A stretch of DNA of 64,000 nucleotides. It comes from Gammaproteobacteria bacterium (GTDB lineage Bacteria > Pseudomonadota > Gammaproteobacteria > GCA-002705445 > GCA-002716945). The translations under genes and the position numbers were made by a program. Below the pieces are notes generated by a model. That model did no database searches, was not told the DNA's origin, and saw only the letters and a list, made by a program, of their open reading frames with translations. Positions within the stretch are counted from its first letter, which is position 1; each line of letters starts with the position of its first letter. The DNA lies in assembly GCA_018667355.1 (NCBI GenBank), contig JABIVC010000009.1, positions 18,665-82,664 of the forward strand, given 5' to 3'. Below, in pieces: positions 8,890 to 37,105 of the stretch.

Positions 8890-9522
8890 ATGAACAATTA
8901 TAATACTAAGCCAGTCTATTGGGAAAAAGCCAAAAATTATTTATCTAATAATGATAATATTATAAAGAAAATTATACAAAGTGTTGATAATAAACATTTT
9001 TTGACTAGGAACTCAACACCTTTTCAAACATTAGCTAACGCGATTATCGGTCAACAGATATCTGTGGCAGCAGCCTCAAGTGTTCTAAATAAGCTCAAAT
9101 CAAATATTGGCGGCTTGAGTCCTAAGAAATTATACTCAGCTAATAACTCAATGCTAACAAATTCTGGCTTATCTAGGCAAAAAATTGAATATTTAAGCAT
9201 TCTAGCCTCTAAATTTGTTACAAATCCTGATTATTTTTACGGTTTTAAGAATATGTCAGATAAAGACATAATAGATAAATTATGTGAATTAAAGGGGATA
9301 GGCGAATGGACGGCACAAATGTATCTAATCTTTCAGTTGAATAGACCAGATATTTTGCCATTAGCTGATATCGGCTTTGTGAATAGTGCAGTCAAGATAT
9401 ATGATATAAAAGAACCAAAATTACAGAATCTTTTGGAGGTTTCTAAGAAATGGGGTCATTATAAAACAGTCGCTGTATGGTATATTTGGAGAATAATTGA
9501 TCCTGAAGTTGTACAGTATTGA
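8890..9522 (+). CDS. alkA: DNA-3-methyladenine glycosylase II (AlkA-like, HhH-GPD)
   Basis: IIGQQISV, GLSRQKIEY, HhH motif LKGIGEWTAQM and catalytic Asp in LPLADIG. Confidence 0.85.
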   Translation: MNNYNTKPVYWEKAKNYLSNNDNIIKKIIQSVDNKHFLTRNSTPFQTLANAIIGQQISVAAASSVLNKLKSNIGGLSPKKLYSANNSMLTNSGLSRQKIEYLSILASKFVTNPDYFYGFKNMSDKDIIDKLCELKGIGEWTAQMYLIFQLNRPDILPLADIGFVNSAVKIYDIKEPKLQNLLEVSKKWGHYKTVAVWYIWRIIDPEVVQY

Positions 9523-9547
9523 CAAAATATTTTATGAAAAAAATAAT
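9519..9547 (+). promoter_or_regulatory. Possible sigma70 promoter upstream of the sigma-1.1 gene
   Basis: Perfect TTGACA (9519-9524), 17-nt spacer, AATAAT (9542-9547). It overlaps the start of the 46-codon ORF. Confidence 0.4.
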
Positions 9548-9674
9548 TAAAAATATAAAAGTAGCCAAAGAAATTAAGAAAAAAAACAAGAATAAGAAAA
9601 CAATTTTTGATAAATATGGCGATAAGATAGAAGATGGTATTGATTATAAAAAAGATAAACCACCTCATTGGTAA
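9534..9674 (+). CDS. Putative 46-aa Lys-rich small protein, below the ORF-track cutoff
   Basis: Hand translation gives MKKIIKNIKVAKEIKKKNKNKKTIFDKYGDKIEDGIDYKKDKPPHW*. It fills most of the alkA to sigma-1.1 gap; no SD. Confidence 0.45.
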   Translation: MKKIIKNIKVAKEIKKKNKNKKTIFDKYGDKIEDGIDYKKDKPPHW

Positions 9675-9709
9675 TGCCGCTATATAATCTTAGTTTGATG
9701 GACAATATT

Positions 9710-9994
9710 ATGAATAATCAGGAAGAGCTAAAGACATTAATTCGCCAAGGCAAAGAGATTGGTTATATTCTTAACGAAACTCTAGATAAATGTCTTTTAA
9801 GCTTCTCAGCAATTGATAGGAAATATATTATTGAGACATTGGAAGAAATGGAAATACAGATTGTTGACTCTCCAAAAGAATATGATGAGTATAAATACTT
9901 ATCTGGTGAAGAAGCTATAAAGATTTTACAAAGTTTGAGTGATGGGACTCATGAAGCATTTATCAAGCCTCCTAACAAAGACAAAGATGAGTAA
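9710..9994 (+). CDS. Stand-alone RNA polymerase sigma70 region 1.1 domain protein
   Basis: QEELKTLIRQGKEIGYI and IIETLEEMEIQIVDS align with E. coli RpoD QSQLKLLVTRGKEQGYL and IIQMINDMGIQVMEE. No sigma regions 1.2-4 follow. Likely start is ATG 9710. Confidence 0.8.
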   Translation: MNNQEELKTLIRQGKEIGYILNETLDKCLLSFSAIDRKYIIETLEEMEIQIVDSPKEYDEYKYLSGEEAIKILQSLSDGTHEAFIKPPNKDKDE

Positions 9995-10038
9995 TTTAAA
10001 AAACTTATGAAACATGTTAACATACGAAAAAACTTATT

Positions 10039-10350
10039 ATGTTTAAGAAATATTATAATTTAATTGTTCTGTTAATATGCACTGGAGCATTTCCGGTTCA
10101 AGTCGTGTCATCGAGTAATACAGCATTCACTGATCCTGCTATATGCTACTTCCATGATGCTGACTCCAATGATGATAGACAAATTATCAAATGTGATCAT
10201 TGTGATTACTACTATGATATTGATTCTAATCAAAATTCTAAATATATTTTCCCGATTAATGAAGATATCTTGGTCGATAACCTTACACTCAAAAAAAATT
10301 TTTTAAGTTACATACTTTCTCTTAACCCTAGATCCCCTCCATTAGTTTAA
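10039..10350 (+). CDS. DUF2946-like (CruR/CutF-like) leader protein with CxxC and a C-terminal RSPP
   Basis: N-terminal hydrophobic segment, C36-x-x-H39, C52-D-H-C55 and terminal NPRSPPLV*; lies 46 nt upstream of a copper-type TonB receptor. Confidence 0.75.
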   Translation: MFKKYYNLIVLLICTGAFPVQVVSSSNTAFTDPAICYFHDADSNDDRQIIKCDHCDYYYDIDSNQNSKYIFPINEDILVDNLTLKKNFLSYILSLNPRSPPLV

Positions 10351-10396
10351 TTTTATTATCATTAATTAATTTAACTAATATATAGCGGAGGATGCT

Positions 10397-12466
10397 ATGA
10401 AAAATATTTATATTTTCTGTCTAATGACATTAATTATTTCGACAAATATATATGCTGAAGATCTTACTGATATTCAGATAACTGCACCTGAACTTAGTTC
10501 ACAAGATTTAACTAACCAAGCTATTGAGGATATCAATACTAAAAATGCCATTGATGGCGGTGATCTTTTAAGATCTATTAACGGTATAAGTACAATCAGA
10601 AGAGGAGGGCATGGCTTAGATCCTGTTGTAAGAGGACAAAGTGATCAACGTCTTAATTCATTTTTGGATGGCGCTGTAGTTTATGGTGCTTGCTCATCTA
10701 AAATGGACCCTGCCTCTACATATGTGAATATAGAAAACTATGACTCAATAAGTGTCATTAAAGGTTCACAGTCAGTATTATATGGTCCGGGCGGACCGGG
10801 TGGAGTAGTAAGGTATGAAAGAATTACTGAACCTCTAACTCAATATACAAAAGATAGCAACACTAAGTCACAGCCATATAAGCTTAAAATAGGTCAGACA
10901 TTTGACTCTAATGCGGAAGCTAAAACTACAATTGGTGATTTTACATTAGGTTTAGGTCAAGCATATTTTAGAGTTAATGCTTCTTATTCTGAGGCCGGGA
11001 ATTATGAAACAGGTACAGGCTTGAAACCACTTACAGAATATGAAACTAGTAATTATTCAACCATATTAGGAAAAAGACTTGATGATGGTTCTAAATTAGA
11101 ATTTTCATATACTGATAACTCTCAAGAAAATATTGGCTTTGCTGGTTTAGCAATGGATATCGTATACAGTTATACAGATATTTATAATTTAAAATACCAT
11201 CGAGTTACACCGCTTGGCCCTTTTTCTTCAATGAAAGTTGAACTTTTTAATTCTGACATGGATCATTTAATGGATAACTATAAAATGAGAAATGTTAATA
11301 CTATGAGAACACCAGCTGCTTCTGATACATATGGTGGAAGAATCATAGGAGCTACAGATAGGGGGATGAAAATTGGTGTTGATTATGAACATAATACTAG
11401 AGATGCCGAGCAAAATATGGTTATTTCTGGAACAGAAAGACATCTTGCATACCTGTGGCCTGGAGCAGAAATTTCTAAGCTGGGTTTCTTTATAGAAAAA
11501 GATAATAAAATGTCAGATCTAACTACAATGTCATATGGTTTAAGATTTGATAGGGTAGAGACAGATGCAACTAGGGCTGCTGTTGATCCTGGTACTGCAC
11601 ATATGGCTCAAGTAACAGCCAATAGTTTGTATACAGCTCATTATGCTGGAACTGTCACAGCAGGTAAAAGAGATTTTAACAATTTTAGTGGGTTCTTGAG
11701 ATTTAAAAAAGATTATGGCCCAATGTCTAGTGCTTATATCTCTCTAAGCAGGAATGAAAGAACGCCTGATGCAACAGAGCTATTCAATGCTAAAACTTCT
11801 ATGGCAATGGGTGGAAAATATAGACTCAGACATATTGGTAATCCAAATATCAATTCTGAGGTACACACTACATTAGAGTTAGGTTTTGAAAATATGATTA
11901 TGGGTAGTCATGTCAATGGATCTTTATATCTTAATGATGTTAGTGATTATATTACAACATACAGAGCTTCTGATGGAACATATGATAATACCGTTAACGA
12001 TGCAAGAATTTATAAGAATGTAGATGCTACTATTTGGGGGTATGAACTTACTGTTAAAAAAGATCTTACCTCTAATGTAAAAACCATATTTAATATAAAT
12101 TATACTCATGGAGATGACGATACACAAAATAGACCATTAGCTCAAATAATGCCTTTATCTGGTGATATTTCATTAGAATATCAGACAAGTTCCGTCAACT
12201 ATGGTTTAAGAGCTAATTTTGCCGATACTCAAGACCGTTTTGATTCAAGAGTCCTTGATAGCGGTAGAACTGGGGGTTATACCGTTTATGATCTATATGC
12301 AGGTTTTGAACCAACTCCAAATATTAGATTTACAATGGGTATAAGTAATTTAACTGATAAAAGATATGCTACTCATTTGAATAGTTCTAACTCTCTAGAT
12401 GCAACAGCTGACCGTGTTGATGAACCAGGAAGAAGTTTCTGGGGATCATTAATTTATGATTTCTAG
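10397..12466 (+). CDS. oprC: TonB-dependent copper receptor (OprC-like)
   Basis: Signal peptide, RRGGHGLDPVVRG, CxxxM (GACSSKMDP), HxM (DHLMDNY), EPGRSFW and terminal Phe. Confidence 0.85.
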   Translation: MKNIYIFCLMTLIISTNIYAEDLTDIQITAPELSSQDLTNQAIEDINTKNAIDGGDLLRSINGISTIRRGGHGLDPVVRGQSDQRLNSFLDGAVVYGACSSKMDPASTYVNIENYDSISVIKGSQSVLYGPGGPGGVVRYERITEPLTQYTKDSNTKSQPYKLKIGQTFDSNAEAKTTIGDFTLGLGQAYFRVNASYSEAGNYETGTGLKPLTEYETSNYSTILGKRLDDGSKLEFSYTDNSQENIGFAGLAMDIVYSYTDIYNLKYHRVTPLGPFSSMKVELFNSDMDHLMDNYKMRNVNTMRTPAASDTYGGRIIGATDRGMKIGVDYEHNTRDAEQNMVISGTERHLAYLWPGAEISKLGFFIEKDNKMSDLTTMSYGLRFDRVETDATRAAVDPGTAHMAQVTANSLYTAHYAGTVTAGKRDFNNFSGFLRFKKDYGPMSSAYISLSRNERTPDATELFNAKTSMAMGGKYRLRHIGNPNINSEVHTTLELGFENMIMGSHVNGSLYLNDVSDYITTYRASDGTYDNTVNDARIYKNVDATIWGYELTVKKDLTSNVKTIFNINYTHGDDDTQNRPLAQIMPLSGDISLEYQTSSVNYGLRANFADTQDRFDSRVLDSGRTGGYTVYDLYAGFEPTPNIRFTMGISNLTDKRYATHLNSSNSLDATADRVDEPGRSFWGSLIYDF

Positions 12467-12476
12467 TTGACATATT

Positions 12477-12521
12477 ACCCGTCCCTACAGCACTCCATTA
12501 AAGGGGCGGGTGATTTATTTT
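12477..12521 (+). terminator. Probable intrinsic terminator after the TonB receptor
   Basis: 10-bp GC-rich stem ACCCGTCCCT/AGGGGCGGGT with one G-U pair and a 15-nt loop, then GATTTATTTT. Confidence 0.55.
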
Positions 12522-12656: not shown

Positions 12657-13655
12657 ATGGATCCATTATCACAAGGTGTTGTTGGCGTAGTTGCTGCTCA
12701 GCAAACTGCAGATCGCAAACATCTCTTAATTGCTAGTCTTTTAGGATTCTTTGCAGGGATGTCTGCTGATTTAGATATATTCATTAAGTCTTCTCAAGAC
12801 CCATTATTCTCGTTAGAGTTTCATAGGCAATTTACGCATTCAATATTTTTTATGCCATTTGGCGGATTAATATGTGCATTATTTTTTTATAATCTCTTTT
12901 TAAAAAATAAAGATATATCATTTAAACAAACTTATATTTACTCAACACTGGGTTATGCTACTCATGGCCTACTTGATGCATGTACAACTTATGGCACTCA
13001 GTTATTTTGGCCATTCACCAATGATAGGATTGCCTGGAATACAATTTCTATTATTGATCCATTATTTACTTTACCTATCCTTTTCTTAGTTGTATTTTCA
13101 GTTTATAAAAATAGCAAAAAATATTCATATATTGCTTTGTCATGGATAATAATATATACATCTTTAGGTTTTATTCAAAATTACAGGGCTGAAGAGATAG
13201 GGAGAGAGCTTGCAGAATCACGTGGGCATAAAATAATAAATATTGAAGCAAAACCAAGTTTTGCAAATATAATTGTTTGGAAGACTATATATACAACTCA
13301 AACACATTATCATATAGATGCAGCTAGAGTAGGATTTAATACTAGAATAATAGAAGGAGTGAAGATAGAAAAATTTAACATAAAAAAATCATTCCCCTGG
13401 CTCGACTTAGAATCTCAACAAGCGAAAGACATAGAAAGGTTTAGATGGTTTTCAAATGGATATATTGCTACTTCTAGTATTAATCCAAATCAAATAATTG
13501 ATATTCGTTATTCAATGTTGCCGAATGAAGGACATGGTTTATGGGGTATACAACTAAATCCAGAAGCAGAAAAAGATGCTTATATAAAAAGAATTTCTAA
13601 TAGACGTAGTGATATGTCCACATATATTAAATTATGGAAGATGATAGTAGACTAA
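12657..13655 (+). CDS. Membrane-bound metal-dependent hydrolase (YdjM/DUF457-like)
   Basis: MDPLSQ, DLD, HRQFTHS, HGLLDACT and IIDP motifs with hydrophobic segments. Confidence 0.85.
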   Translation: MDPLSQGVVGVVAAQQTADRKHLLIASLLGFFAGMSADLDIFIKSSQDPLFSLEFHRQFTHSIFFMPFGGLICALFFYNLFLKNKDISFKQTYIYSTLGYATHGLLDACTTYGTQLFWPFTNDRIAWNTISIIDPLFTLPILFLVVFSVYKNSKKYSYIALSWIIIYTSLGFIQNYRAEEIGRELAESRGHKIINIEAKPSFANIIVWKTIYTTQTHYHIDAARVGFNTRIIEGVKIEKFNIKKSFPWLDLESQQAKDIERFRWFSNGYIATSSINPNQIIDIRYSMLPNEGHGLWGIQLNPEAEKDAYIKRISNRRSDMSTYIKLWKMIVD

Positions 13656-13781: not shown

Positions 13782-14471
13782 ATGCGTTATAAAATTTTAT
13801 TTCTTTTAACCATCTGCTGTTTTAACCCATCCTATTTATATTCTGGTGGTAAGACTACTGCGGAATCAGTTAATTCAAAAAACATTCAATATACTATTGG
13901 TTATATGTCAGAGTATTGGATAAGAGGGTCTTTTCAAGCTGCTTCTGTTCTACATGCCAATGTTTCTTATACTACTGGCCCAGTTTATTTGAGTGCTGGT
14001 TATGCAGATTTAAGAGATAGAAAGGGCGGAGCATCTTATAATGAAGGAGAGGCATTCGTAAGTCTATATGGAAGTTATAATTTTAAATTATATGAAATAC
14101 CATCATACATAGGACTTGCAGCATATAGATATACCGATGGAATTGATCAGCATTATAATGAGGTCAGTATTGGTGCTGATCTAAGTCTATTTTCTGTTGA
14201 TGCTGTTATTCTAGGTGATTATGATACGTCTCCAAGCTCAGATTATTGGCATTTTCAGGTCACAGTACCCTTGGGTCCAGTCAATTATACTTATGGTACA
14301 TATTCTGGTGCATGGCAATATGTTGTTCATGAAGTATCAACAGGGTTTGATATCAATGATATAAATTTTGGTGTAAAACTAGGCATGAATAATGACAATG
14401 CGATGGGTACATCTGCCAATTCAAATCAGGATACAACATACGGTGTACTCTCTATTAGCTATAGCTTTTAG
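13782..14471 (+). CDS. Putative outer-membrane beta-barrel, TorF/Gcw_chp-like porin
   Basis: Signal peptide, SEYWIRG resembling the SDY-x-FRG TorF motif, alternating aromatic strands and terminal ISYSF. Confidence 0.6.
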   Translation: MRYKILFLLTICCFNPSYLYSGGKTTAESVNSKNIQYTIGYMSEYWIRGSFQAASVLHANVSYTTGPVYLSAGYADLRDRKGGASYNEGEAFVSLYGSYNFKLYEIPSYIGLAAYRYTDGIDQHYNEVSIGADLSLFSVDAVILGDYDTSPSSDYWHFQVTVPLGPVNYTYGTYSGAWQYVVHEVSTGFDINDINFGVKLGMNNDNAMGTSANSNQDTTYGVLSISYSF

Positions 14472-16120: not shown

Positions 16121-16150
16121 GTTCATGAGGTAGGTATCAATTTTACTTCA

Positions 16151-16495
16151 GTGGAGACGGCGGGAATCGAACCCGCGTCCGAGAGCACTCAGCCCTTAGT
16201 ACTACATGTTTAGTTTATCTTTAATTTAATCATTAAGCTGACGATAAACAATCTACTTAATAACTGTCTTGTTTAATTTAACAGTACAATAACAAGCACA
16301 TGTACTGCGGTCTTATCATTATGACTTCAGTAAAGAGCATATAAGCCTACTCTTAGTGAAGCTAGCGGCAGTTAGGCTGCTAGGGCTAAAGGTTTATTTT
16401 CAGCGTTTATAGTTTATCAGCAGTTTAACGAGTTACCGAAAAGCTCGACATGCACTTCAGGAATTGCAACCCCACGTCGAAGCCAGGTCGTCCCC
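16151..16495 (-). ncRNA. ssrA: tmRNA, one-piece; predicted tag (A)AENKPLALAA
   Basis: The minus strand starts GGGGACG and ends with GGGTTCGATTCCC T-arm and CGTCTCC-A, with a G3-U70 pair. Tag ORF GCT GAA AAT AAA CCT TTA GCC CTA GCA GCC TAA lies at 16404-16372 after ATAAAC. CCA is not fully encoded. Confidence 0.96.
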
Positions 16496-36788: not shown

Positions 36789-36861
36789 GCGAGAATAGCT
36801 CAGTTGATAGAGCGCAACCTTGCCAAGGTTGAGGTCGCGGGTTTGAGCCCCGTTTCTCGCT
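36789..36861 (+). tRNA. tRNA-Gly(GCC) with A19/U56
   Basis: Cloverleaf GCGAGAA/TTCTCGC, anticodon loop TTGCCAA, U73; no encoded CCA. Confidence 0.96.
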
Positions 36862-36868
36862 CATTAAT

Positions 36869-36939
36869 GGCTAAGTGGCAGAGTGGTCATGCAGCGGCCT
36901 GCAAAGCCGTCAACGCCGGTTCGATTCCGACCTTAGCCT
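36869..36939 (+). tRNA. tRNA-Cys(GCA)
   Basis: GGCTAAG/CTTAGCC acceptor, anticodon loop CTGCAAA, GGTTCGATTCC T-arm, U73. Confidence 0.96.
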
Positions 36940-37021
36940 TAAATTACTACAGTACTCATATTCGGTGACAACCACCTAACAATATGGTACATTCTAATCT
37001 TCGAAATCTATGATTACCATA

Positions 37022-37105
37022 GCCCGGGTGGCGGAATTGGTAGACGCAAGGGACTTAAAATCCCTCGAGGGCAACCTCGTGCCGGTTCGACTCCGGCCCT
37101 GGGCA
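37022..37105 (+). tRNA. tRNA-Leu(TAA)
   Basis: GCCCGGG/CCTGGGC acceptor, anticodon loop CTTAAAA, long variable arm, A73. Confidence 0.96.

What the first reader, a model, noticed from the sequence alone, without database searches (positions are those of the whole stretch)
10039..12466. Putative copper-sensing ribosome-arrest leader (CxxC...RSPP) gating an OprC-type receptor
Seen: the leader has a signal/TM segment, C52-D-H-C55 and R98-S-P-P101, with 42 residues between the motifs. The downstream TonB receptor has CxxxM and HxM. Known: CruR (upstream of bfrG in Bordetella) and CutF (Rhodobacter) are DUF2946-type leaders using CxxC and C-terminal RAPP-like motifs, and CxxxM-HxM is the OprC copper site. 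Inference: the spacing would let the CxxC emerge while RSPP sits at the peptidyl-transferase centre. RSPP is a variant of RAPP/RGPP, in a streamlined AT-rich genome.
Basis: partly seen in the sequence, partly recalled or inferred. Interest (0 to 1): 0.75.

Follow-up and report, generated by a model that had tools for sequence, protein, structure and literature searches.

The report
Copper-sensing arrest leader before copper receptor
A small secreted-type peptide gene ending in Arg-Ser-Pro-Pro sits just before an OprC-like outer-membrane copper receptor in an uncultured AT-rich marine gammaproteobacterium, and it most likely stalls its own ribosome to expose the receptor's ribosome-binding site; this is a variant of the known CruR/CutF copper switches that the standard family model does not detect.

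Summary
Window 10039-10350 encodes a 103-aa peptide with one N-terminal signal-like hydrophobic segment, C36, C52-D-H-C55, a 42-residue spacer, and R98-S-P-P101-L-V-stop. After a 46-nt gap comes a 689-aa TonB-dependent receptor. Its CxxxM and HxM align exactly with the OprC copper ligands C143/M147/H323/M325.

I collected 39 unique relatives, from marine metagenomes and one Gammaproteobacteria MAG. All keep CxxC and RSPP, and the spacer is 42 or 43 residues even though its sequence is only 20-30% identical. Every locus that reaches the downstream gene start (28 of 30) has the same receptor. This conservation pattern is typical of a ribosome-arrest leader.

The leader is not detectably a DUF2946 member by Pfam, profile-profile comparison, or an exhaustive HMM search. 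Its spacing is 42-43 residues, against 44-46 in my DUF2946 sample. The intergenic gap is 41-55 nt, against 162 nt in Bordetella.

In all 20 unique intergenic regions, the Ser-Pro-Pro codons are predicted to pair with the receptor's GGAGG Shine-Dalgarno. That is the only full GGAGG among about 60 genes in the window. Blocking the footprint of a ribosome stalled at RSPP frees the Shine-Dalgarno.

Best reading: CruR-like copper logic with SecM/CutF-like Shine-Dalgarno unmasking. Stalling and the copper response are inferred, not shown. I classify it as a new variant of a known kind.

The parts
9995..10023 (+). Promoter-like element for the leader-receptor unit: -35 TTTAAA (9995-10000), a 17-nt spacer counting the TGT as its last three bases, and an extended -10 TGT-TAACAT (10015-10023).
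   Evidence: Read from the sequence. Aligned family members carry an equivalent TTTGA/TTTGTA and TGnTAnnAT at the same place, and several have a terminator just upstream. This is inferred; the simple promoter scanner did not call it.
10039..10350 (+). Leader ORF of 103 aa: a putative metal-sensing ribosome-arrest peptide.
   Evidence: There are 39 unique homologues, and the ORF and its length (103-106 aa from the conserved start Met; 113 and 116 aa in two loci only if an upstream in-frame ATG is used) are preserved down to 22% identity. It has no Pfam or NCBIfam match. AlphaFold2 gives pLDDT 35, so no stable fold is predicted.
10039..10116 (+). Signal-peptide-like N-terminus (residues 1-26): K3K4, a hydrophobic core at residues 8-23, then Ser-rich VVSSS.
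   Evidence: Hydropathy profile. LLIxxGAFP is conserved across the family.
10144..10146 (+). Invariant Cys36, a possible additional metal ligand. It occupies the position of the semi-conserved Cys of DUF2946.
   Evidence: Invariant in A3/A4. hhalign places it opposite the DUF2946 semi-conserved Cys, but that alignment is not significant.
10192..10203 (+). C52-D-H-C55, the putative metal-binding CxxC.
   Evidence: CDHC in 37 of 39 sequences, CNHC in 1 and CDKC in 1.
10204..10329 (+). Spacer, residues 56-97. Its length is conserved but its sequence is not.
   Evidence: The spacer is 42 residues in 29 sequences and 43 in 10. Mean pairwise identity is 0.20-0.30. By contrast, the C36-to-CxxC distance varies from 11 to 17 residues.
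10330..10341 (+). R98-S-P-P101 (AGA UCC CCU CCA), the putative arrest motif. By analogy with CruR, the P-site would hold P100 and the A-site P101.
   Evidence: Invariant in 39 of 39 sequences. P100 is CCU in 28 of 30 unique leader DNAs and P101 is CCA in 27 of 30. The equally invariant Pro19 uses CCA 16, CCT 10, CCG 3 and CCC 1. The CruR toeprint places the third and fourth codons of RAPP in the P and A sites (PMC12992588).
10336..10391 (+). Predicted Shine-Dalgarno-sequestering hairpin. H1 pairs CCUCC (10336-10340) with GGAGG (10387-10391). H2 pairs AUUAGUU (10341-10347, tail codons) with AACUAAU (10373-10379). The AU-rich apical stem is variable.
   Evidence: Searches give an MFE of -13.4 kcal/mol with z = -1.75. 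In the 20 unique family intergenic regions, the probability that the SD pairs with the S-P-P codons is 0.94-1.00. That probability falls to 0.00-0.38 when the stalled-ribosome footprint is blocked. There is no column-wise covariation.
10387..10391 (+). GGAGG Shine-Dalgarno of the receptor, 5 nt before the AUG.
   Evidence: It is the only full GGAGG upstream of any of the ~60 genes in the window. It is conserved as GGAGG, GGAGA or GGGGG throughout the family.
10397..12466 (+). OprC-type TonB-dependent receptor, 689 aa. Signal peptide ending at YA|ED, TonB-box-like DLTDIQITAP (10460-10489), C99xxxM103 (10691-10705), and H290xM292 within 11261-11275.
   Evidence: Pfam Plug and barrel domains. TIGR01778 TonB-copper scores 404 bits, the best family hit but below the 472 cutoff. 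OprC 6fok matches at E = 3e-53 with all four Cu ligands aligned. The ligand motifs are conserved in every family receptor long enough to show them.
12474..12521 (+). Intrinsic terminator closing the two-gene unit: a 13-bp GC-rich stem and 15-nt loop, followed by a U-rich tract that begins within the stem's last base pairs (UGAUUUAUUUU, 12511-12521).
   Evidence: Fold gives -20.9 kcal/mol, z = -3.58. Sequence shown.

Best explanation
The leader and receptor form a self-contained two-gene unit with its own promoter (~9995-10023) and terminator (12474-12521). The leader is a regulatory nascent peptide.

Proposed mechanism:
1. A ribosome translating the leader arrests with Pro100 (CCU) in the P site and Pro101 (CCA) in the A site. 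This is the R-x-P-P type of arrest.
2. At that moment C52DHC55 lies 45-48 residues from the peptidyl-transferase centre, so it has just emerged from the exit tunnel.
3. The arrested ribosome physically covers nt ~10321-10351. That stretch includes the CCUCC-AUUAGUU arm, which otherwise pairs with the receptor's GGAGG Shine-Dalgarno (10387-10391) and with AACUAAU (10373-10379).
4. The only strong Shine-Dalgarno in this region is therefore exposed, and the receptor is translated.
5. When copper is sufficient, it is bound by the nascent chain through CxxC, probably together with C36 and H54. Metal-induced compaction or pulling releases the arrest, the leader terminates two codons later, the hairpin re-forms, and receptor synthesis falls.

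The copper logic is that of CruR: metal relieves the arrest and an uptake receptor is shut off. The output is that of SecM-secA or CutF-cutO: SD unmasking.

Shown here:
- The ORF, its motifs, and their conservation and spacing.
- The receptor's identity and its Cu-ligand residues.
- The predicted pairing and its loss under a ribosome footprint.

Inferred:
- That arrest occurs.
- That copper is the ligand, and the direction of its effect.
- That SD masking limits translation.
For: Leader conservation:
- Conservation matches an arrest peptide rather than a folded protein. The signal segment, C36, CDHC and RSPP are invariant, while the spacer is 20-30% identical but fixed at 42/43 residues in 39 unique sequences.
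- AlphaFold2 predicts no fold (pLDDT 35), as was reported for CruR (PMC9426467).

RSPP as an arrest motif:
- RSPP is arrest-permissive in ApdA/ApdP mutants, was recovered in random E. coli arrest screens, and is depleted from bacterial proteomes (PMC12992588).
- It occurs in natural uORFs that cluster with RAPP peptides (PMC10987492).

Linkage to the receptor:
- The leader always precedes the receptor with a 41-55 nt gap, even where the flanking genes differ. Close relatives have an isc/HhH-GPD context; remote relatives have an ExbB/ExbD/second-TBDR context.
- The receptor keeps the OprC Cu ligands (PMC8610252).

RNA structure and codon usage:
- SD-to-SPP-codon pairing has P >= 0.94 in 20 of 20 unique intergenic regions and is relieved by a 27-nt ribosome block.
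- The receptor's GGAGG is unique among ~60 genes in an otherwise SD-poor genome.
- The arrest Pro codons are frozen as CCU-CCA, while the control Pro19 drifts freely.
- The two members whose P100 is not CCU have GGAGA as their SD, and it pairs with UCUCC instead.

Precedent:
- CruR and CutF establish Cu-responsive arrest leaders. CruR-type leaders upstream of TIGR01778 OprC-type receptors have already been reported.
Against: - There is no experimental evidence for arrest, copper binding or regulation in this family.
- The leader has no detectable homology to DUF2946: no Pfam hit for any of the 8 members scanned, hhalign probability 0.6%, and an exhaustive profile search that found only this family.
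- The hairpin shows no column-wise covariation, since observed values equal the shuffled controls.
- Its MFE is only mildly better than shuffled sequence (z from 0.0 to -3.9).
- The SD-to-PP-codon pairing survives shuffling of the intervening sequence. It is therefore an almost automatic consequence of CCUCC plus GGAGG in an AU-rich context, not proof of selection.
- A normally terminating ribosome would also open the hairpin, so simple translational coupling could explain part of the arrangement.
- The frozen Pro codons could reflect tRNA-specific effects on arrest rather than RNA pairing.
- The Cys3-His ligand set would suit zinc as well as copper.
- The 42-43 spacing lies just outside the 45 +/- 1-2 reported for DUF2946.
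Confidence: 0.6

Rival explanations
1. This is CruR-type transcription attenuation. Arrest at RSPP keeps Rho off the nascent RNA. Copper releases the ribosome and Rho then terminates before or within the start of the receptor gene. On this view the SD hairpin is incidental or secondary.
For: CruR, the closest functional precedent with a TBDT downstream, works this way (PMC9426467). The last ~100 nt of the leader ORF are C>G skewed, with GC skew -0.46 to -0.67 at 10260-10379, which is rut-like in sign.
Against: The intergenic gap is 41-55 nt here against 162 nt in Bordetella, and long gaps are said to be typical of cruR loci. The region is only 19-33% GC, so absolute C content is low. The receptor's AUG lies only ~46 nt beyond the arrest site, leaving little untranslated RNA for Rho loading. 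No rho gene was examined in the window.
Confidence: 0.15
2. This has CutF-type polarity. The nascent leader is exported co-translationally. Periplasmic copper strengthens the arrest rather than relieving it, so the receptor is induced by copper.
For: The Sec-type signal segment is conserved. An SD-shielding stem-loop is the CutF output (PMC9973294; preprint 10.1101/2025.02.05.636593). At arrest, C36 lies ~64 residues from the P site, far enough to reach the periplasmic side of SecYEG.
Against: The downstream gene is an OprC-type importer, not a detoxifying oxidase, so induction by copper excess would be physiologically odd. CDHC at 45-48 residues from the PTC would still be at the ribosome exit or inside the channel, not in the periplasm. 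The motifs are CxxC and R-x-PP as in CruR, not CxxxC and PPP as in CutF.
Confidence: 0.1
3. The leader is primarily a working secreted or periplasmic copper-binding protein, such as a chaperone or metallophore-like partner of the receptor. It would simply be translationally coupled to the receptor, and RSPP would be a structural C-terminus without regulatory arrest.
For: It has a signal peptide plus conserved Cys/His residues. It is tightly linked to the receptor. The hairpin would produce coupling even without arrest.
Against: About 40% of the mature sequence (the spacer) is nearly free to vary in sequence yet fixed in length. No fold is predicted. The invariant motif is exactly one of the most strongly avoided arrest-prone tetrapeptides and lies 2 residues from the stop.
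Confidence: 0.1
4. This is a chance ORF in AT-rich DNA with coincidental motifs.
For: Small ORFs are common in AT-rich sequence. The leader is not annotated by name in any source.
Against: The ORF, its frame, its length and its motifs are preserved in 39 unique sequences down to 22% identity, with indels in multiples of three.
Confidence: 0.01

Closest known systems
CruR (Bp2923) of Bordetella pertussis, a DUF2946/PF11162 upstream ORF of the TonB-dependent transporter gene bfrG (Roy et al. 2022, PMC9426467; arrest shown in PURE by Fujiwara et al. 2025, PMC12992588)
   Same: Both are small exported-type peptides encoded as the first gene. Both have a semi-conserved upstream Cys, an invariant CxxC, a spacer of fixed length, and an R-x-P-P motif 2-3 residues before the stop. 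Both are followed by a TonB-dependent receptor. OprC-type TIGR01778 receptors are a reported partner of CruR homologues. The physiological logic expected for an uptake receptor (off when copper is present) is the same.
   Different: This leader has no detectable sequence homology. It has RSPP instead of RAPP. Its spacer is 42-43 residues, against 45 in CruR and 44-46 in my DUF2946 sample. Its tail is 2 residues, not 3. The region after CxxC is polar and acidic, not hydrophobic or Ala-rich. The intergenic gap is 46 nt, not 162 nt. The likely output is SD unmasking rather than Rho-dependent termination.
CutF of Rhodobacter capsulatus, encoded upstream of the multicopper oxidase gene cutO (Ozturk et al. 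2021/2023, PMC8456105, PMC9973294; preprint 10.1101/2025.02.05.636593)
   Same: Both have a Sec-type signal, a Cys motif and a C-terminal proline arrest motif. In both, an mRNA stem-loop masks the downstream gene's Shine-Dalgarno and is opened by the paused ribosome.
   Different: CutF uses CxxxC and PPP, is EF-P sensitive, senses periplasmic copper, and induces a detoxifying enzyme. Here the motifs are CxxC and RSPP and the downstream gene is an importer. The anti-SD arm is formed by the arrest codons themselves rather than lying in the intergenic region.
RAPP-class arrest peptides ApdA, ApdP and ApcA, and SecM-secA (Sakiyama 2021, PMC7897499; Morici 2024, PMC10951233; Fujiwara 2024/2025)
   Same: [quoted passage not shown] RSPP is listed as a natural and arrest-permissive variant.
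   Different: Those peptides monitor Sec or YidC activity through pulling force. This leader carries a metal-binding CxxC and precedes a metal receptor. In this family RSPP is the invariant wild-type motif, not a tolerated mutant form.
OprC (PA3790) of Pseudomonas aeruginosa, PDB 6fok (Bhamidimarri et al. 2021, PMC8610252)
   Same: Both have a Plug plus 22-strand-type barrel architecture. The match is E = 3e-53 over residues 48-688. All four copper ligands of the CxxxM-HxM site are conserved at aligned positions.
   Different: Local identity is low (about 31% to the best plasmid homologue, Thioclava; a clearly weaker match to OprC, 184.7 bits). TIGR01778 scores 404 bits, below the 472 equivalog cutoff. 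The receptor is 689 aa against 723, and the alignment starts at OprC residue 92 against residue 48 here, so OprC's N-terminal extension is missing.

Membership tests
DUF2946 / CruR family (Pfam PF11162) | Matches the PF11162 profile at or above the gathering score | tested here: not met
   No PF11162 hit at E <= 10 for the window leader or 7 close homologues. Genuine DUF2946 leaders from plasmids score 55 and 35 bits in the same scan. hhalign of the family alignment against a DUF2946 sample gives probability 0.6%, E = 0.1. A profile search of 1.84 billion representatives returned only this family.
DUF2946 / CruR family (Pfam PF11162) | N-terminal export signal (signal peptide or N-in/C-out TM segment) | tested here: met
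   K3K4 is followed by a hydrophobic core at residues 8-23 (KD 2.29) and a Ser-rich c-region. This is conserved in the family. No dedicated signal-peptide predictor was available.
DUF2946 / CruR family (Pfam PF11162) | Invariant CXXC motif | tested here: met
   CDHC, CNHC or CDKC in 39 of 39 sequences.
DUF2946 / CruR family (Pfam PF11162) | C-terminal RAPP motif about 3 residues before the C-terminus | tested here: not met
   The motif is RSPP in 39 of 39 sequences, never RAPP or RGPP. The tail is 2 residues, or 4 in one subclade. RSPP is a documented arrest-permissive variant, so the function may be retained even though the literal feature is not.
DUF2946 / CruR family (Pfam PF11162) | CXXC-to-RAPP spacing of about 45 residues, conserved to within 1-2 | tested here: not met
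   The spacing here is 42 (29 sequences) or 43 (10 sequences). My DUF2946 sample gives 44-46. The property of a tightly conserved spacing is met, but the value is shifted by 2-3 residues.
DUF2946 / CruR family (Pfam PF11162) | First gene of an operon with a TBDT or copper-homeostasis genes | tested here: met
   The leader is followed by an OprC-type receptor in every locus that extends far enough. A promoter-like element lies upstream and a terminator downstream.
DUF2946 / CruR family (Pfam PF11162) | Copper-relieved translation arrest controlling downstream expression | not testable with these tools
   This needs toeprinting or PURE translation and reporter fusions.
RAPP-like ribosome arrest peptides (ApdA/ApdP/SecM class) | R-x-P-P (or RAGP/RAPG) core near the C-terminus of a small secretory or membrane protein encoded upstream of the regulated gene | tested here: met
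   RSPP at residues 98-101 of 103, a signal segment, and the receptor 46 nt downstream.
RAPP-like ribosome arrest peptides (ApdA/ApdP/SecM class) | Demonstrated peptidyl-tRNA accumulation or toeprint at the motif | not testable with these tools
CutF-type Cu-sensing leaders | CxxxC Cu motif and C-terminal PPP repeat | tested here: not met
   The motifs here are CxxC and a PP preceded by R-S.
CutF-type Cu-sensing leaders | mRNA stem-loop shielding the downstream Shine-Dalgarno | tested here: met
   This is met in silico only. The SD pairing probability is 0.94-1.00 in 20 of 20 intergenic regions and falls to 0-0.38 under a stalled-ribosome block. There is no covariation support.
OprC-type TonB-dependent copper receptor (TIGR01778) | Plug plus TonB-dependent barrel with a TonB box | tested here: met
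   PF07715 at 5e-16 and PF00593 at 1.9e-28. DLTDIQITAP follows the signal peptide.
OprC-type TonB-dependent copper receptor (TIGR01778) | Scores above the TIGR01778 equivalog cutoff | tested here: not met
   404.1 bits against a cutoff of 472.45. It is still by far the best family hit; the next scores 149 bits.
OprC-type TonB-dependent copper receptor (TIGR01778) | CxxxM-HxM copper site at the OprC positions | tested here: met
   C99/M103/H290/M292 align with OprC C143/M147/H323/M325. The site is conserved in all family receptors. The motif definition comes from PMC8610252.
OprC-type TonB-dependent copper receptor (TIGR01778) | Binds and imports ionic copper | not testable with these tools
   This needs metal-binding and uptake assays.

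The most novel reading that the evidence does not exclude
This may be a previously undescribed lineage of metal-sensing arrest peptides in uncultured, SD-poor marine Gammaproteobacteria. It would be either independently evolved or diverged beyond recognition from DUF2946. Three features would distinguish it:
1. RSPP is the invariant natural arrest motif.
2. The arrest codons themselves (CCU-CCA) serve as the anti-Shine-Dalgarno for the receptor. A single ribosome pause would therefore be converted directly into SD exposure, with no need for Rho or a separate intergenic stem.
3. The genome keeps a canonical GGAGG essentially only where it is needed for this switch.
Probability: 0.35. Interest if true: 0.65.

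Novelty: new variant of a known kind. Interest (0 to 1): 0.55.

Why it matters
Copper-responsive nascent-peptide switches (CruR, CutF) were described only in 2022-2025 and are usually found through the DUF2946 profile or RAPP/RGPP motif searches. This family escapes both approaches. Metal-sensing arrest leaders may therefore be more widespread, and more varied in sequence, than current surveys indicate, including in abundant streamlined marine bacteria where copper is scarce.

The family also offers a compact natural test case of about 360 nt for three open questions:
- Whether RSPP is a fully competent natural arrest motif.
- How the distance from CxxC to the PTC sets metal-dependent arrest release (42-43 residues here, 45 in CruR).
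- Whether Pro-Pro codons double as an anti-SD.

On the practical side, the leader is not named in any source, and its clusters list only JGI/ENA sources rather than NCBI. It is probably being missed in MAG annotation.

Tried and rejected
- Pfam and NCBIfam scans of the leader and 7 homologues found no DUF2946 match, only chance-level zinc-ribbon/BED hits with E of 0.04-0.2.
- hhalign of the family against a DUF2946 sample was not significant, although it placed the signal end, the upstream Cys and CxxC in register.
- AlphaFold2 on the 8-sequence alignment gave pLDDT 35, so it says nothing about a metal site. I did not run a fold search for that reason.
- RNAalifold on 20 intergenic regions recovered only the 5-bp CCUCC:GGAGG helix with zero compensatory pairs. 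My explicit H1+H2 structure gave covariation measures equal to shuffles. I therefore do not claim covariation support.
- Shuffling the middle of the intergenic region did not abolish the SD pairing. The apical stem is therefore not evidence of selection.
- An Rfam scan at E <= 1 over 9900-10600 found only two chance-level hits, to eukaryotic families, far below their gathering scores.
- The consensus scans called no promoter immediately upstream of the leader start (+ strand matches lie only inside the upstream ORF or within the two genes) and no terminator after the receptor. I identified both by eye, alignment and folding.
Narrower alignments worked.
- The palindrome ATGTTAACAT at 10014-10023 looked like a possible Zur/Fur-type operator, but it is not conserved in the family and coincides with the extended -10. 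I dropped that idea.


Full report
**1. What is in the sequence**

Window 10039-10350 (+) is a 103-codon ORF. Its product is MFKKYYNLIVLLICTGAFPVQVVSSS NTAFTDPAIC36YFHDADSNDDRQIIK C52DHC55 DYYYDIDSNQNSKYIFPINEDILVDNLTLKKNFLSYILSLNP R98SPP101 LV-stop. The only hydrophobic stretch covers residues ~8-23 and follows K3K4, so it is signal-peptide-like. The rest of the peptide is polar.

Forty-six nucleotides downstream, at 10397-12466 (+), lies a 689-aa TonB-dependent receptor.
- It has Plug and barrel domains.
- Its best curated family is TIGR01778 TonB-copper at 404 bits. That is below the equivalog cutoff of 472 but far above the next family at 149 bits.
- Its best solved relative is P. aeruginosa OprC (6fok, E = 3e-53).
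- In that alignment GAC99SSKM103D lies on GAC143PNRM147D, and DH290LM292DN lies on DH323IM325DN. All four ligands of the published CxxxM-HxM copper site are therefore present at homologous positions (PMC8610252).

A GC-rich stem with a U tract at 12474-12521 (-20.9 kcal/mol, z = -3.6) closes the unit. The window is 30.8% GC and about 93% coding. Exact-match proteins elsewhere are labelled 'MAG: Gammaproteobacteria bacterium'.

**2. The leader is a real, conserved gene**

A word-indexed search found 7 close homologues at 64-99% identity. An exhaustive profile search of 1.84 billion representatives added more at 22-44% identity. Scans of genome and metagenome contigs gave 30 loci.

Across 39 unique protein sequences:
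- CxxC is invariant: CDHC in 37, CNHC in 1, CDKC in 1.
- RSPP is invariant in 39 of 39.
- C36 is invariant.
- The tail after RSPP is 2 residues, or 4 in one subclade.
- The CxxC-to-RSPP spacer is 42 residues (29 sequences) or 43 (10 sequences). Its mean pairwise identity is only 0.20-0.30.
- The C36-to-CxxC distance, by contrast, varies from 11 to 17 residues.

A spacer that drifts in sequence but is fixed in length, flanked by invariant short motifs, is what a nascent-chain ruler between a sensing motif and the peptidyl-transferase centre would look like. It is not what a folded domain would look like. AlphaFold2 accordingly predicts no fold (pLDDT 35).

The leader-receptor pair is the conserved module, because the flanks change. 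Close relatives share the window's isc/HhH-GPD/sigma-region-1.1-like neighbours. Remote relatives sit between ExbD, a second TBDR and ExbB. Every receptor long enough to be judged keeps GAC[SA]SKMDPA and DMDHLMD. Most members have a recognisable -35/extended -10 upstream of the leader, and some have a terminator before it.

**3. Relation to known systems**

*CruR.* CruR is the DUF2946 uORF upstream of bfrG in Bordetella. Its defining features are an export signal, a semi-conserved Cys, CXXC, 45 +/- 1-2 residues, RAPP three residues from the end, and a long intergenic region. In the published model, copper sensed through CXXC relieves arrest at RAPP and allows Rho-dependent termination (PMC9426467). 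Arrest at RAPP, with the two Pro codons in the P and A sites, was later shown in a PURE system (PMC12992588). CruR homologues upstream of TIGR01778 OprC-type receptors were already noted.

*CutF.* CutF in Rhodobacter has a Sec signal, CxxxC and PPP. Copper-induced stalling melts a stem-loop that masks the cutO Shine-Dalgarno.

*RSPP.* RSPP is documented as arrest-permissive in ApdA/ApdP, as a product of random arrest screens in E. coli, as strongly depleted from proteomes, and as a variant in natural uORFs that cluster with RAPP peptides.

*Membership test.* The leader is not detectably a DUF2946 protein.
- There is no PF11162 hit even at E <= 10 for 8 members.
- Genuine DUF2946 leaders taken from plasmid OprC loci score 35-55 bits in the same scan.
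- hhalign of the two family alignments gives probability 0.6%.
- The exhaustive profile search reached no DUF2946 protein.
- The DUF2946 sample has spacers of 44-46 residues, 3-residue tails and a hydrophobic or Ala-rich segment after CxxC. This family has 42-43 residues, 2-residue tails and an acidic/polar segment.

I therefore conclude that it works like CruR/CutF but cannot be filed as a DUF2946 member. It is either extremely diverged, possibly under AT pressure, or convergent.

**4. The likely output: Shine-Dalgarno unmasking**

Folding 10324-10402 pairs CCUCC (10336-10340, the Pro100-Pro101 codons) with GGAGG (10387-10391, the receptor's SD). It also pairs AUUAGUU (10341-10347, the tail codons) with AACUAAU (10373-10379), beneath a variable AU-rich apical stem.

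In all 20 unique family intergenic regions, the probability that the SD pairs with the Ser-Pro-Pro codons is 0.94-1.00. I then made the first 27 nt unavailable, mimicking a ribosome with Pro100 in the P site. The SD pairing probability dropped to 0.00-0.38.

Further support:
- The receptor's GGAGG is the only full SD among ~60 genes in this SD-poor window, and the leader itself has none.
- P100 is CCU in 28 of 30 unique leader DNAs and P101 is CCA in 27 of 30. The equally invariant Pro19 uses CCA 16, CCT 10, CCG 3 and CCC 1.
- The two members whose P100 is not CCU have GGAGA as their SD, and it pairs with UCUCC one codon upstream.

Limits, stated plainly:
- RNAalifold finds only the 5-bp helix, with no compensatory changes.
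- My explicit two-helix model shows no covariation beyond shuffles.
- Whole-hairpin z-scores are modest.
- The pairing persists when the intervening sequence is shuffled. It follows almost automatically from CCUCC plus GGAGG in an AU-rich context.
- The frozen codons could equally reflect tRNA-specific effects on arrest.
- AACUAAU, UAUAG and CUAUG are invariant in the intergenic region, and the hairpin explains this only partly.

**5. Mechanism I commit to (overall confidence about 0.6)**

1. The leader's ribosome arrests at R98-S-P100 in the P site with P101 in the A site.
2. CDHC is then 45-48 residues from the PTC, just outside the tunnel.
3. The arrested ribosome covers the anti-SD arm, so the receptor's SD is open and the receptor is made.
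4. When copper is available it is bound by the emerging CxxC, probably with C36 and H54. The resulting compaction or force releases the arrest, termination follows two codons later, the hairpin re-forms and receptor synthesis drops.

Approximate sub-probabilities:
- The leader is a regulatory arrest peptide for the receptor: 0.8.
- The output is SD unmasking: 0.6.
- Copper is the ligand and relieves the arrest: 0.5.

Rivals:
- Rho-dependent attenuation as in CruR (0.15). The C>G skew at 10260-10379 is compatible with it, but the 46-nt AU-rich gap argues against it.
- CutF polarity with periplasmic sensing and induction by copper (0.10). This is odd for an importer.
- A working periplasmic copper-binding protein with simple translational coupling (0.10).
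- A chance ORF (about 0.01).

**6. Novelty and verdict**

The general arrangement, a Cu-sensing arrest uORF in front of an OprC-type receptor, is known. The new elements are:
- A family invisible to PF11162 and to RAPP/RGPP motif surveys.
- An invariant natural RSPP.
- A ruler shifted to 42-43 residues.
- A very short intergenic region in which the arrest codons themselves are the anti-SD.
- The host: uncultured, streamlined, SD-poor marine Gammaproteobacteria.

I rate it a new variant of a known kind, interest 0.55. The decisive work is experimental: PURE translation and toeprinting, reporter fusions with and without copper, and compensatory hairpin mutants.

Noticed in passing
window 10387-10391 compared with all ~60 genes in the window: The receptor is the only gene in the 64-kb window preceded by a full GGAGG Shine-Dalgarno. 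About two thirds of the genes have not even a 4-mer SD core within 20 nt of the start. Keeping a strong SD at this one spot may itself reflect the regulatory hairpin.
   Followed up: partly
window 10373-10399 (3' half of the leader-receptor intergenic region): AACUAAU, UAUAG and CUAUG (the last includes the start codon) are invariant or nearly so in 20 unique family intergenic regions, while the 5' half varies. UAUAG lies in the internal loop of the predicted hairpin and remains unexplained. It could pair with CUAUG, placing the SD in a loop.
   Followed up: partly
window 9668-9994 (+): A stand-alone 108-aa ORF matches only sigma-70 region 1.1 (PF03979, 3.4e-07). It lies directly upstream of the leader and is syntenic in close relatives. 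A free-standing region-1.1 protein is unusual.
   Followed up: no
window 9519-9674 (+): A 51-aa, very basic ORF has a 46-aa counterpart called as a gene at the same position in several related contigs. It has no Pfam match.
   Followed up: no
window 12474-12521 (+): A strong intrinsic terminator follows the receptor: a 13-bp stem, a 15-nt loop and a U tract, at -20.9 kcal/mol and z = -3.6. The consensus scanner missed it because of the long loop.
   Followed up: yes
L017, L020, L021, L024, L027, L028, L030, L033: In remote family members the leader-receptor module is followed by an ExbB-family gene (PF01618). In three of them it is preceded by a second TonB-dependent receptor and a divergent ExbD. 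The module has therefore moved between genomic contexts.
   Followed up: partly
L008:2447-2970 (Thioclava sp. FTW29 plasmid NZ_CP135445.1): The plasmid receptor most similar to the window's (31% identity) is preceded by a 135-aa 'hypothetical protein' with CPFC, a 44-residue spacer, RGPP and a 3-residue tail. It scores just below the DUF2946 cutoff (21.6 against 23.7 bits). Its Pro-Pro codons also pair with the downstream SD (CCGGAG) in the MFE structure. Pro-Pro codons acting as an anti-SD may therefore be more general.
   Followed up: partly
P0013, P0016, P0018 (representatives): Three family members lose the CDHC and/or RSPP part and look frameshifted or truncated. They could be assembly errors or decayed copies.
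   Followed up: no
window 16149-16495 (-) and 36789-37105 (+): A tmRNA gene (190 bits) and a cluster of three tRNA genes.
   Followed up: no
window 13782-14471 (+) and 12657-13655 (+): Downstream of the unit lie a YdjM-family inner-membrane protein (PF04307) and a 229-aa signal-peptide protein with no Pfam or NCBIfam match. Neither has an evident link to copper.
   Followed up: no
window 10392-10400: A 2-codon mini-ORF (AUG CUA UGA) starts immediately after the SD and overlaps the receptor's AUG. It is present only in the window's subclade and is probably not functional because there is no spacing between the SD and its AUG.
   Followed up: no
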